Shown in pieces: positions 204 to 2,290 of a stretch of DNA of 4,265 bases. Both the position numbers and the translations under genes were made by a program. The notes under the pieces were generated by a model. That model had not been told where the DNA came from. It searched no databases and saw nothing but the letters and a program-made list of their open reading frames with translations. The stretch's first letter is position 1. Each line of letters starts with the position of its first letter. Origin of the DNA: a virus (lineage: Duplodnaviria; Heunggongvirae; Uroviricota; Caudoviricetes); the IMG/VR virus record IMGVR_UViG_2671180846_000015. One strand, given 5' to 3'.

Positions 204-875
204 TCAGCGACCAATCACCACAACCTGACCACCGTCCCCTTCGTCTGCCGTGCTGATCTCCTGAGAAACCACGCGAGACCCCACGCGCATTTCCCCGTAC
301 AGAACAGGCAGAACATTGCCCTGGGCAACCATGTTATCCAGTGAGGAGAAATAGGTGTTCTGCTTACCGTTATCCGTTGTCTGTGTACGGGGAGTTCTGG
401 CTTTCGGTGCCAGCATCTGCGCCACACCACCGAGCACCATACTGGCACCGAGAGAAAACAGGATGCCGGTCATACCACCGGCCCCAATGGCTGCCCCCCA
501 TGCTGCAAGGGTGGCTCCGGCGGTAAAGAATGATCCGGCAATGGCTGCAGCCCCCAGGACAATCTGGAATACGCCACCTGACTTGGCCCCGGCGACTCTG
601 GGAACAATATGAATCACAGCGCCATCAGGCAGAGTCTCATGTAACTGCGCCGTTAACCCGGACGCGCTGACGTCCCGCCCGGCAATCCGTACCTGATACC
701 AGCCGTCGCTCAGTTTCTGACGAAACGCCGGGAGCTGTGTGGCCAGTGCGCGGATGGCTTCAGCCCCCGTTTTCACACGAAGGTCGATGCGGCGGCCAAA
801 TCGTTGCAAATCCCCGTAAAGGCAGATGCGTGCCATTCCCGGTGACGCCAGAGGGAGTGTGTGCGTCGCTGCCAT
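204..875 (-). CDS. I: Tail tip assembly protein I (223 aa): N-terminal ubiquitin-like beta-grasp domain ending in Gly-Gly, then a Gly/Ala-rich hydrophobic C-terminal region
   Basis: Complete ORF with ATG at 875..873 and TGA at 206..204. Its 223-aa length and sequence (MAATHTLPLASPGMARICLYGDLQRF...) match lambda gpI as I recall it. It overlaps the 3' end of K by 103 nt in another frame, as in lambda. A purine-rich GGGAGAGG lies 11 nt upstream of the ATG. Confidence 0.95.
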   Translation of the reverse strand: MAATHTLPLASPGMARICLYGDLQRFGRRIDLRVKTGAEAIRALATQLPAFRQKLSDGWYQVRIAGRDVSASGLTAQLHETLPDGAVIHIVPRVAGAKSGGVFQIVLGAAAIAGSFFTAGATLAAWGAAIGAGGMTGILFSLGASMVLGGVAQMLAPKARTPRTQTTDNGKQNTYFSSLDNMVAQGNVLPVLYGEMRVGSRVVSQEISTADEGDGGQVVVIGR

Positions 876-1586
876 TTGTCGGTATACCTCTCCCGTTTAC
901 TCAGTTGTTCAGGAATATGGTGCAGCAGCTCGCCGTCACCACAGTAAATAGCGGCGTGATTCGGCACCGATGAACCAAAACAGCACAGCAGCACATCGCC
1001 CGGCTGCGCCGCTGACAACGGCACCTGATACAGCCCTGTGGCCTCCAGATTATCCAGATAGAGATTCTGACCGTTACGCCACCAGTCATCCTCACGCACA
1101 AAATCCGGCATCTCAATCTCCGCCAGATGATAAGCATCCCGGAACAGTGTGTAACAGTCCGTCACACCGTGCTCAAAGCGCCGCCCGGTGAGATGCGGCA
1201 CACAGCGGAACTTATGAATCTCACCCCGGCAGACCAGCCACCACGGCAAATCACTCTGCACCTGCAGCCGCCGGTCGGCCTCACTCAGCCAGGGCAGACC
1301 ACCGGGGTGGCTGTGGACCAGCGCCACAATCTCCCCCTGCATTTCTGCCTGCAGCCAGTCTTCCGGCGACATACGGAAATACGCCTCCGGCTCACCGGAG
1401 ATATTCACGCAGGGGAAATATCTTTCCCCCTCCGGCGTGCTTACCACGAAGCCGCACGACTCCGCTGGCGCACATCGCCGGGCGTGCGCCAGAATCGCTG
1501 ATTCNNNNNNNNNNNNNNNNNNNNNNNNNNNNNNNNNNNNNNNNNNNNNNNNNNTGCGCCAGAATCGCTGATTCTGTCTGTGTCAT
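773..1586 (-). CDS. K: Tail tip assembly protein K (JAB/MPN metalloprotease-like N-terminal domain + NlpC/P60 C40-peptidase-like C-terminal domain), interrupted in this assembly by an N gap plus duplicated flank
   Basis: The ATG at 1586..1584 opens MTQTESAILA, then the reading frame is broken by 50 N plus a 20-bp duplicated flank (70 nt, frameshifting). Deleting 1505..1574 gives one continuous ORF of about 247 aa: MTQTESAILAHARRCAPAESCGFVVSTPEGERYFPCVNISGEPEAYFRMSPEDWLQAEMQGEIVALVHSHPGGLPWLSEAD...DCYTLF...PNHAAIYCGDGELLHH...ASTFV, stop at 775..773. The intact part matches lambda gpK. The internal ATG at 1372 gives exactly 199 aa, the lambda K length I recall. JAMM motif HSHPx6Sx2D is at about 1274..1315 and the NlpC/P60-like Cys is at about 1154..1156. 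Confidence 0.85.
1485..1574. repeat. Perfect 20-bp direct duplication (tgcgccagaatcgctgattc) on both sides of the N gap; interpreted as an unmerged contig-end overlap, not a biological repeat
   Basis: 1485..1504 and 1555..1574 are identical. Collapsing one copy and the Ns restores the K reading frame and the lambda-like protein sequence across the join. Confidence 0.9.
1505..1554. other. Assembly gap (run of 50 N)
   Basis: Exactly 50 consecutive N, the conventional length for an unknown-size scaffold gap. It sits inside the K reading frame. Confidence 0.95.
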
Positions 1587-1591
1587 GGGAT

Positions 1592-2290
1592 TTACTGCGA
1601 AAGTTTGTTAATGGAAAGGAAGCCGCCAAAGTTGCCGACGTTATTGTGGAACTTACAACCGCTCAGGCATTTGCTGCATTTATCCTTCGTGATATCGGAC
1701 GTTGGCTGGTCATATTCATCCGCGACAGCCGGACCGCTATAACCGCACTCGTCACCGCGATAGGTCCAGGTGCAGGTGTTGGCCAGCATGATACGTCCCG
1801 GAAAAACAGCGCCNTCCGTTTCCGTCGGCGTGGACAGTACAAANGAGGCACTCACCGCGCTCAGTTCGCTGCACTGCTCAATGCGCCAGCGGCTGATCAC
1901 CTCCTGCTCCGGATCGGCGTAACTGTTTCCGTTGACGAAGTTCACCGCATCCAGAAAACGGGCGTAAACCTTACGCCTGACCACCGTTCCGCCGACCAGA
2001 CTCTGCATATCTTCCACCATACCGGTGACCATGCCGTGCAGGTTAGAAACCGTCAGTGTCGGACGGGCAGCACTGCCCTTGCCGTTCAGTTCAAATCCCG
2101 TCCCCTGAATGGGNTANNCCTGATACTGNCGCCCCTGCCAGNTNACCGGCTCACCTTTTTCGTTCTGCTCATTACAGAAAAAATAACGTTCNCCACCGAC
2201 CTCTGTCAGNTCGATTTCCCAGAGCACCACGCTGGCCGACTGCTCCGCACGGGTGCATTCATTCAGTGTTTCCTGCCGGATATCCTGCAT
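1592..2290 (-). CDS. L: Tail tip assembly protein L (232 aa) with a C-terminal cysteine cluster; contains 10 ambiguous base calls
   Basis: ORF with ATG at 2290..2288 (overlapping the M stop as TGATG) and TAA at 1594..1592. Its 232-aa length and sequence (MQDIRQETLNECTRAEQSASVVLWEI...CTWTYRGDECGY...CSKCLSGCKF...) match lambda gpL. Single N bases at 1814, 1844, 2114, 2117, 2118, 2129, 2142, 2144, 2192 and 2210 give X residues. AGGTGG lies about 7 nt upstream of the ATG. Confidence 0.93.
   Translation of the reverse strand: MQDIRQETLNECTRAEQSASVVLWEIXLTEVGXERYFFCNEQNEKGEPXXWQGXQYQXXPIQGTGFELNGKGSAARPTLTVSNLHGMVTGMVEDMQSLVGGTVVRRKVYARFLDAVNFVNGNSYADPEQEVISRWRIEQCSELSAVSAXFVLSTPTETXGAVFPGRIMLANTCTWTYRGDECGYSGPAVADEYDQPTSDITKDKCSKCLSGCKFHNNVGNFGGFLSINKLSQ

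What the first reader, a model, noticed from the sequence alone, without database searches (positions are those of the whole stretch)
1372..1586. K needs the upstream ATG (1586) to encode a complete JAB/MPN domain; the 199-aa start at 1372 would cut off the catalytic Glu
With the gap artefact removed, the frame is open from ATG 1586 and reads MTQTESAILAHARRCAPAESCGFVV...(45 aa)...HSHPGGLPWLSEAD. The N-terminal stretch fits the usual prokaryotic JAB pattern (h-x-x-H-A-x4-P-x-E-x-C-G), and the Glu-to-HxH spacing is close to that of archaeal JAMM, where I recall Glu22/His67/His69/Asp80 but cannot verify the numbering here. The 199-aa lambda K length I recall corresponds to the internal Met at 1372 (MSPEDWLQ...), which leaves only about 19 residues before HxH, too few for the fold. 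The internal ATG has a GGAGG 11 nt upstream, whereas the ATG at 1586 has no clear SD but lies 5 nt after the L stop. So either the longer 247-aa protein is the real product by translational coupling, or both isoforms are made.
Basis: partly seen in the sequence, partly recalled or inferred. Interest (0 to 1): 0.55.

Follow-up and report, generated by a model that had tools for sequence, protein, structure and literature searches.

The report
Lambda tail gene K's true start
The phage tail-assembly gene K in this window really begins 48 codons upstream of the textbook start and encodes a complete two-domain protease; databases already annotate it this way in E. coli prophages, and the short textbook form comes from one base missing in the 1982 lambda reference sequence.

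Summary
The 50-N gap (1505-1554) is flanked by an exact 20-nt duplicate. Removing the gap and one copy gives an open 247-codon frame on the minus strand, from ATG 1586 (5 nt after the L stop) to the stop at 773-775.

Only the 247-aa product holds a whole JAB/MPN (JAMM) domain. Pfam Prok-JAB matches residues 3-105 at 52.6 bits, with motif residues E19, H68-S-H70, S78 and D81. An NlpC/P60 domain follows at 111-224. The 199-aa form lacks Glu19, a helix and two strands, and falls below the Pfam threshold.

Homologues down to 39% identity keep the N-terminal 48 residues and start within a few bases of the upstream gene's stop. The internal Met49 is Ile or Leu in 13 of 20 diverged homologues, and its GGAGG occurs only in the lambda clade.

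The 199-aa textbook K has a simple cause. J02459/NC_001416 lack one G after position 14266 (window base 1382), so the N-terminal codons fall out of frame. Other lambda records and RefSeq E. coli annotation have the G, and RefSeq E. coli aa.

The JAB+NlpC/P60 architecture was published in 2006. The finding is therefore correct but already known. Its value is curatorial.

The parts
773..1586 (-). Gene K coding sequence: 247 codons plus stop once the artefactual 70 bases (gap plus one duplicate copy) are removed
   Evidence: Joined ORF and its translation. The exact protein is found on 987 public contigs. RefSeq E. coli annotates the same 744-nt CDS.
1505..1554 (.). Assembly gap of 50 N, flanked by an exact 20-nt duplicate (1485-1504 = 1555-1574). 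This is a scaffolding artefact, not biology.
   Evidence: The joined sequence aligns without indels to three other lambda sequences.
1584..1586 (-). K start codon ATG, 5 nt downstream of the L stop. It has no Shine-Dalgarno sequence and sits in an unstructured A/U-rich context.
   Evidence: SD duplex dG +0.7; mean unpaired probability 0.76. Among diverged loci, 15 of 18 place the K start 3-11 nt after the upstream ORF's stop.
1592..1594 (-). Stop codon (TAA) of gene L, the upstream partner for translational coupling
   Evidence: L ORF 1592..2290; Pfam Phage_tail_L.
1202..1580 (-). JAB/MPN (JAMM) metalloprotease domain, K residues 3-105. The range includes the artefactual gap.
   Evidence: Pfam PF14464, 52.6 bits, profile 3-113 of 114. 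PDB 2KKS aligns to residues 7-109. AF2 model pLDDT 96.6. Foldseek hits to PfJAMM1, AMSH, Rpn11 and CSN5.
1460..1462 (-). Codon of Glu19 (GAG), the JAMM general-base glutamate, which is absent from the 199-aa form
   Evidence: Read. Invariant in 21 sequences and at least 90% conserved in 51. Aligned with the conserved Glu of 2KKS.
1274..1315 (-). Remainder of the JAMM motif: His68-Ser69-His70 (1307-1315) through Ser78-Glu-Ala-Asp81 (1274-1285)
   Evidence: Motif definition EXnHS/THX7SXXD from PMC300881.
1370..1372 (-). Internal ATG (Met49), the textbook 199-aa start
   Evidence: The residue is Ile in 11 and Leu in 2 of 20 diverged homologues.
1384..1388 (-). GGAGG 11 nt upstream of Met49. It lies within codons for Pro-Glu-Ala and is predicted to pair with an upstream CUCCGG.
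   Evidence: dG -9.5 in the lambda clade only, at least +0.4 in Citrobacter and Edwardsiella; hairpin; unpaired probability 0.45.
1382..1382 (-). The G that is missing from the lambda reference sequence (after J02459 position 14266). It is present in this window.
   Evidence: Alignment. In J02459 the ATG at 14133 opens only a 76-aa ORF that is out of frame with the annotated K.
845..1186 (-). NlpC/P60 (C40) papain-like peptidase domain, K residues 111-224, with Cys121 (codon 1154-1156), His187 and His199
   Evidence: Pfam PF00877, 46.7 bits. Cys121 is at least 90% conserved and H187 and H199 are invariant in 51 sequences. Foldseek hits to MepS/Spr and LytE.
204..875 (-). Gene I (223 aa), downstream partner whose start overlaps the 3' end of K by 103 nt. 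Its N-terminal domain is ubiquitin-like.
   Evidence: Pfam PF06805 on I residues 14-97. Iyer et al. 2006.

Best explanation
Gene K of this lambda-type prophage is translated from the ATG at 1586 (minus strand) into a 247-residue, two-domain peptidase.

Shown here:
- The N-terminal domain (about residues 3-105) is a JAB/MPN metalloprotease with the full JAMM motif: Glu19, His68, His70, Ser78, Asp81.
- The C-terminal domain (about residues 111-224) is an NlpC/P60 cysteine peptidase with Cys121, His187 and His199.
- The 199-residue K of textbooks and of RefSeq/UniProt lambda entries is an annotation artefact. The 1982 reference sequence lacks one G eleven bases upstream of the internal ATG, so the first 45 codons fall into another frame.

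Inferred:
- The start codon has no Shine-Dalgarno sequence but lies 5 nt after the stop of gene L in an unstructured stretch. Ribosomes finishing L most likely re-initiate there (translational coupling), as elsewhere in this tightly packed tail operon.
- From published predictions, K acts during tail-tip assembly and is not in the virion. Its JAB domain probably cuts the ubiquitin-like N-terminal domain from protein I.
For: ORF and domains:
- The frame is open and complete after gap removal.
- Pfam Prok-JAB gives a full-length match only with the upstream start.
- PDB JAMM protein 2KKS aligns over residues 7-109, including the Glu.

Structure:
- AF2 model pLDDT is 96.6. Residues 3-15 form a helix and 21-27 and 30-36 form strands.
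- Foldseek finds PfJAMM1 (5LD9/5LDA, TM 0.66), AMSH, Rpn11 and CSN5, plus the NlpC/P60 proteins MepS and LytE.

Conservation:
- The N-terminal 48 residues are conserved, with E19 invariant, from E. coli to Paraburkholderia.
- Codons 2-48 are under purifying selection (median dN/dS 0.34, against 0.14 for the rest).
- Distant representatives of 228-271 aa align from query residue about 4-10 near their own N-terminus.
- Diverged loci have their only plausible start 3-11 nt after the upstream ORF's stop.
- 79 of 80 viral contigs carry an intact 247-codon ORF; in the remaining one my start-pattern search found no ORF.

Reference error and annotation:
- J02459 lacks one G that is present in OM418625, PV340536 and the window. 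Whole-lambda contigs that contaminate unrelated genome assemblies keep the 247-codon frame intact, which requires the G.
- RefSeq E. coli annotates 744 nt starting 5 nt after L.
- The exact 247-aa proteins occur on about 1000 contigs each.

Published background:
- The JAB+NlpC/P60 architecture of K and its predicted action on I are in Iyer et al. 2006.
- gpK is absent from virions.
- Only gpI residues from 101 onward are seen in the tail tip.
Against: - No direct protein-level evidence (N-terminal peptide, ribosome footprints) was available here. The lambda ribosome-profiling paper is not held.
- The upstream ATG has no Shine-Dalgarno sequence, whereas the internal ATG has a strong GGAGG. Some internal initiation in the lambda clade therefore cannot be excluded.
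- Four phage records lack the G, giving 923-nt matches. These are J02459, its RefSeq copy and two others (OR474059, OR974322). I assume the two others follow the reference but did not verify that.
- Zinc binding, catalysis and cleavage of I are untested.
Confidence: 0.9

Rival explanations
1. Both isoforms are made. The 247-aa protein comes from the coupled upstream start. A 199-aa protein lacking a working JAB domain but keeping NlpC/P60 comes from internal initiation at Met49, driven by the GGAGG. The short form would have its own role.
For: - GGAGG sits 11 nt upstream of the ATG, with a predicted anti-SD duplex of -9.5 kcal/mol.
- The ATG at codon 49 is kept in 78 of 79 close viral contigs.
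- Iyer et al. note natural K variants that have only the NlpC/P60 domain.
- Gene callers often pick this start. The 199-aa clusters hold about 11,000 member sequences.
Against: - Codon 49 is ATA, ATC or ATT (Ile) in 11 and CTG or CTT (Leu) in 2 of 20 diverged homologues.
- Homologues that keep Met (Citrobacter, Edwardsiella) have no SD there, with dG of at least +0.4.
- The GGAGG is explained by the Pro-Glu-Ala codons, and it is predicted to be paired in a hairpin.
- The 11-nt spacing is longer than optimal (from general knowledge of bacterial initiation).
- Conservation among the 79 contigs reflects at least 96% identity, not selection.
Confidence: 0.08
2. The classical annotation is right. 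K is a 199-aa protein starting at Met49, and the upstream 144 bases are an untranslated spacer or a separate small ORF.
For: - J02459, NC_001416, HK630, DE3 and lambda imm21 records all annotate 199 aa.
- UniProt TIPK_LAMBD is 199 aa.
- There is a strong SD before Met49.
Against: - These annotations trace back to a reference that lacks one base. HK630, DE3 and lambda imm21 carry the G, yet their annotation was copied 'by similarity to lambda'.
- The upstream 48 codons are conserved at protein level with purifying selection and carry the invariant catalytic Glu.
- The 199-aa form fails the Pfam JAB threshold.
- Many homologues have no Met at that position.
Confidence: 0.02

Closest known systems
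Phage lambda tail tip assembly protein K (TAPK family; Iyer, Burroughs and Aravind 2006; Anantharaman and Aravind 2003)
   Same: - About 97% nucleotide identity to lambda across L-K-I.
- Same gene order H-M-L-K-I.
- Same JAB + NlpC/P60 architecture as described for TAPK.
- The exact protein is already in databases as a 247-aa 'C40 family peptidase / phage tail protein'.
   Different: This is a prophage allele with a handful of substitutions relative to lambda. The lambda reference entries (AAA96551, NP_040598, TIPK_LAMBD) list only the C-terminal 199 residues because of the missing G.
Stand-alone prokaryotic JAMM proteases that act on ubiquitin-like proteins (AfJAMM; Pyrococcus furiosus JAMM1 with SAMP2, PDB 5LD9/5LDA; haloarchaeal desampylase)
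   Same: - JAMM motif E...HxH-x7-S-x2-D.
- MPN fold: Foldseek TM 0.66, rmsd 2.6 A to 5LD9.
- Weak NCBIfam desampylase hit over residues 3-115.
- A ubiquitin-like partner (protein I) is encoded next door.
   Different: - K's JAB domain is fused to an NlpC/P60 peptidase.
- It works in virion assembly, not in protein modification or sulfur transfer.
- No activity has been shown.
- The NCBIfam score (29.9) is far below the desampylase cut-off (130).
NlpC/P60 (C40) endopeptidases such as E. coli MepS/Spr and B. subtilis LytE
   Same: - Pfam PF00877 match above threshold.
- Conserved Cys-His-His.
- Structural matches.
   Different: - K's NlpC/P60 domain is fused to an N-terminal JAB domain, which MepS/Spr and LytE lack.
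- gpK is not detected in the virion.
- Its substrate is unknown; Iyer et al. suggest it may also process protein I.

Membership tests
JAB/MPN+ (JAMM) metalloprotease, Pfam PF14464 Prok-JAB | Full-length profile match above the curated threshold | tested here: met
   The 247-aa form scores 52.6 bits against a cut-off of 25 and covers profile positions 3-113 of 114. The 199-aa form scores 23.7 bits and covers only 63-113.
JAB/MPN+ (JAMM) metalloprotease, Pfam PF14464 Prok-JAB | JAMM motif E-x(n)-H-S/T-H-x7-S-x2-D | tested here: met
   E19, H68-S69-H70, S78 and D81 are present. They are invariant in 21 sequences. Among 51 sequences, H68, H70 and D81 are invariant and E19 and S78 are at least 90% conserved. 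Motif definition from PMC300881.
JAB/MPN+ (JAMM) metalloprotease, Pfam PF14464 Prok-JAB | MPN fold | tested here: met
   AF2 pLDDT 96.6. Foldseek hits to 2KKS, 5LD9/5LDA, AMSH, Rpn11 and CSN5 at probability 1.00. This rests on a predicted structure, not a solved one.
JAB/MPN+ (JAMM) metalloprotease, Pfam PF14464 Prok-JAB | Zinc binding and (iso)peptidase activity | not testable with these tools
   Needs biochemistry.
NlpC/P60 (peptidase family C40), Pfam PF00877 | Profile match above threshold and a conserved catalytic Cys with two His | tested here: met
   46.7 bits against a cut-off of 23, on residues 111-224. D120, H187 and H199 are invariant and C121 is at least 90% conserved in 51 sequences. 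Structural matches to MepS and LytE. Assigning these residues as the triad is an inference from the alignment.
Lambda tail assembly protein K (TAPK) | Position between minor tail protein L and ubiquitin-like protein I in a lambdoid tail operon, with close sequence identity to lambda K | tested here: met
   ORFs and Pfam hits for M, L and I. About 97% nucleotide identity to lambda, with K, L and I annotated under the match.
Genes with a functional in-frame internal start (two isoforms from one ORF) | Internal start codon and its ribosome-binding site conserved among homologues | tested here: not met
   Codon 49 is Ile or Leu in 13 of 20 homologues. The SD is present only in the lambda clade.
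Genes with a functional in-frame internal start (two isoforms from one ORF) | Detection of the short protein or of initiating ribosomes at the internal site | not testable with these tools
   No proteomic or ribosome-profiling data were reachable.

The most novel reading that the evidence does not exclude
In lambda and its closest relatives, the GGAGG-ATG at codon 49 is a working internal start. It would yield a JAB-less, NlpC/P60-only 199-aa K isoform with a role distinct from the full-length enzyme. This would echo the natural NlpC/P60-only K variants noted by Iyer et al.
Probability: 0.08. Interest if true: 0.4.

Novelty: already known. Interest (0 to 1): 0.2.

Why it matters
The biology is not new. 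K as a JAB+NlpC/P60 protein was described in 2003 and 2006, and NCBI's pipeline already calls the 247-aa protein in thousands of E. coli prophages.

What is worth passing on is curatorial. The flagship lambda entries (J02459/NC_001416, NP_040598, UniProt TIPK_LAMBD) still give a K that lacks the catalytic glutamate and a third of the JAB domain, because one G is missing from the reference DNA. That truncation has been copied into other phage records, including HK630, DE3 and lambda imm21.

It also reaches experiments. The 2003 JAMM paper cites the 199-aa entry, and a 2025 ORF-expression screen lists NP_040598 as gpK. Anyone testing K's predicted processing of the ubiquitin-like protein I must clone from the upstream ATG.

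Tried and rejected
I used the 97%-identical P0006 instead.
- Literature searches for the position '14266', and for papers listing differences between lambda stocks and NC_001416, found nothing relevant. My recollection that a commercial supplier's lambda sequence notes list a G insertion at 14266 is from memory only.
- The Casjens and Hendrix lambda review and the lambda ribosome-profiling paper are not held.
- The lambda interaction-map paper contains none of the K-related terms I searched for.
- An AF2 model of the 199-aa form came out as confident as the full-length model (pLDDT 95.5). AlphaFold simply builds the remaining part, so this comparison says nothing about whether the truncated domain folds.
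- The viral-contig scan returned only near-identical loci. The divergence needed for the codon analysis came from the genome scan.
- I considered whether the reference's missing G could be a real mutation of the lab strain, or a site of programmed frameshifting. Independent lambda sequences and whole-lambda contaminant contigs all have an intact frame, so a sequencing error is far more likely. I could not prove it.

Full report
**What the window is.** The 4265-base window carries the lambda-type tail genes on the minus strand. In order these are the 3' part of H (tape measure), M (2619-2290), L (2290-1592), K and I (875-204). Pfam confirms M, L and I. The K region is about 97% identical to phage lambda. 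The first 400 bases of the query occur in 4336 of 5426 complete E. coli genomes, so this is a very common prophage module.

**Checking the observation.**
- A run of 50 N (1505-1554) is flanked by an exact 20-base duplicate (1485-1504 = 1555-1574).
- Deleting the gap and one copy yields an uninterrupted 247-codon frame, from ATG 1586 to the stop at 775-773.
- The join is validated by an indel-free alignment to three other lambda sequences.
- The coordinates for the upstream ATG, the 5-nt spacer after the L stop, the internal ATG at 1372 and the GGAGG 11 nt before it are all right.
- The only slip is that 42 residues, not 45, separate ...GFVV from HSHP.
- The recalled AfJAMM numbering (E22/H67/H69/S77/D80) is correct (PMC300881).

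**Domain evidence.**
- Against Pfam, the 247-aa protein gives Prok-JAB (PF14464) over residues 3-105. This covers profile positions 3-113 of 114 at 52.6 bits (cut-off 25).
- It also gives NlpC/P60 (PF00877) over residues 111-224.
- The 199-aa form keeps NlpC/P60, but its JAB match shrinks to profile positions 63-113 at 23.7 bits, below the cut-off.
- The JAMM motif reads E19 ... H68-S-H70-x7-S78-x2-D81.
- A solved JAMM protein (2KKS) aligns over residues 7-109, with LAHARQALPNEACG against LAHARRCAPAESCG.
- An AlphaFold model built on 51 homologues has mean pLDDT 96.6. In it, residues 3-15 form a helix and 21-27 and 30-36 form strands.
- Foldseek finds 2KKS, Pyrococcus JAMM1 (free and bound to the ubiquitin-like SAMP2), AMSH, Rpn11 and CSN5 for the first half. 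It finds MepS/Spr and LytE for the second half.
- The 199-aa start therefore removes the catalytic glutamate and three secondary-structure elements of the fold.

**Comparative evidence.**
- Most protein clusters related to K are 242-249 aa with both Pfam domains. Clusters of 199 aa exist but carry only PF00877.
- In an alignment of 21 K genes, from E. coli to Pasteurellaceae and Paraburkholderia (39% identity), the N-terminal segment aligns throughout and E19, HSH, S78 and D81 are invariant.
- In 51 sequences down to 31% identity, E19 is at least 90% conserved.
- Codons 2-48 show purifying selection, with median dN/dS 0.34 against 0.14 for the rest of the gene.
- An exhaustive HMMER scan of 1.84 billion representatives found 2777 relatives. 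The distant full-length ones (228-271 aa) align from query residue about 4-10 close to their own N-terminus.
- In diverged loci the only plausible start is an ATG 3-11 nt after the stop of the L homologue, in 15 of 18 cases.
- The residue at position 49 is Ile in 11 and Leu in 2 of 20 diverged homologues.
- Where Met is kept outside the lambda clade, no Shine-Dalgarno sequence precedes it.
- The lambda-clade GGAGG is simply the codons CCG-GAG-GCG (Pro-Glu-Ala), and it is predicted to be paired in a hairpin. The upstream start sits in an unstructured stretch.

**Why lambda K is listed as 199 aa.**
- Aligning J02459 with resequenced lambda records (OM418625, PV340536) and with the window shows that the reference lacks one G in GGAGGC-TATTTCCGTATG, immediately after position 14266. 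That base is window position 1382.
- In J02459 the ATG at 14133 therefore opens only a 76-codon ORF that is out of frame with the annotated K at 14276.
- Whole-lambda contigs that contaminate unrelated genome assemblies (about 48.4-48.5 kb, in Pseudomonas and Shewanella assemblies) keep the 247-codon frame intact.
- 79 of 80 viral contigs carry an intact 247-codon ORF. In the remaining one my start-pattern search found no ORF.
- The simplest reading is a sequencing error in the 1982 reference. I recall a supplier's note listing a G insertion at 14266, but I could not find it in the held literature.
- The truncated annotation has been copied into records whose DNA does have the G: HK630, DE3 and lambda imm21.
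- One lambda record uses a 211-aa GTG start.
- PV340536 and RefSeq E. coli genomes annotate the 744-nt gene starting 5 nt after L.
- The exact 247-aa lambda protein and the exact window protein each occur on about 1000 contigs, under the names 'C40 family peptidase', 'phage tail protein' and 'metal-dependent protease of the PAD1/JAB1 superfamily'. The 199-aa sequence is AAA96551 / TIPK_LAMBD.

**How it most likely works.**
- Shown here: the gene encodes a complete JAB domain fused to an NlpC/P60 domain, and this architecture and start position are conserved.
- Inferred: initiation at the SD-less ATG depends on ribosomes terminating at the L stop 5 nt upstream. This fits the tight packing of the operon, where H/M and M/L overlap and K/I overlap by 103 nt.
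- From the literature: K is needed for tail-tip assembly but is not in the virion.
- Iyer et al. predicted that K's peptidase domains process protein I, with the JAB domain releasing its ubiquitin-like N-terminal domain at a conserved glycine.
- Cryo-EM resolves gpI only from residue 101 onward. That is compatible with the prediction but does not prove it.

**Rivals.**
- A second, 199-aa isoform from Met49 cannot be excluded for lambda itself, because the SD is strong. It has no comparative support, so I give a functional short isoform about 8%.
- The classical 'only 199 aa' reading is contradicted by every comparative test, and I give it about 2%.

**Novelty and score.** The JAB+NlpC/P60 architecture of K was published in 2003 and 2006, and the 247-aa start is the standard RefSeq call for E. 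coli prophages. The finding is therefore correct but already known.

The residual value is curatorial. The reference lambda entries remain truncated and are still used. The 2003 JAMM paper cites AAA96551, and a 2025 expression screen lists NP_040598 as gpK. Interest is 0.2.

Noticed in passing
window 773-875 (minus strand); loci L153 and L154 at 1561-1564: Gene I has the opposite annotation problem. RefSeq E. coli genomes and PV340536 start I at a GTG overlapping the K stop, giving 190 aa. That cuts about 20 residues from the ubiquitin-like domain. Pfam PF06805 begins at residue 14 of the 223-aa I (MARICLYGDLQRFG), and diverged homologues start there (MATVRFYGDLQRYG), 58-67 nt inside K. The lambda clade has a further upstream ATG 103 nt inside K, and E. 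albertii has only that one. A K/I overlap of at least 58 nt therefore appears to be conserved.
   Followed up: partly
loci L087-L100, L106-L107, L110-L111, L115, L118, L123, L129-L130, L132, L138, L140: Many 'genomes' of unrelated organisms (Pseudomonas, Shewanella, Bradyrhizobium, Paenibacillus, Streptomyces, Enterococcus and others) contain low-coverage contigs that are 94-99% identical to lambda-type K. Some are about 48.4-48.5 kb long. These look like lambda DNA contamination or spike-in in public assemblies.
   Followed up: no
window 1814, 1844, 2114, 2117-2118, 2129, 2142, 2144, 2192, 2210: There are ten ambiguous bases (N) at nine sites inside gene L, in addition to the 50-N gap in K. 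The window comes from a low-quality draft sequence.
   Followed up: no
locus L153 at 821-1564 (E. coli E2865); loci L135-L137: Some chromosomal copies of K are pseudogenes. RefSeq flags an internal stop in the E2865 copy, although its first 400 bases are 100% identical to the window. Three further E. coli and Shigella copies are frameshifted or truncated within the JAB region. This looks like prophage decay.
   Followed up: no
window 1373-1410 (minus strand): The GGAGG before Met49 is predicted to pair with an upstream CUCCGG in a local hairpin, and the AUG lies in a second hairpin (fold energy -42.6 kcal/mol for -60..+40). The true start region is almost unstructured by comparison (-15.2 kcal/mol). 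No shuffle control was run.
   Followed up: partly
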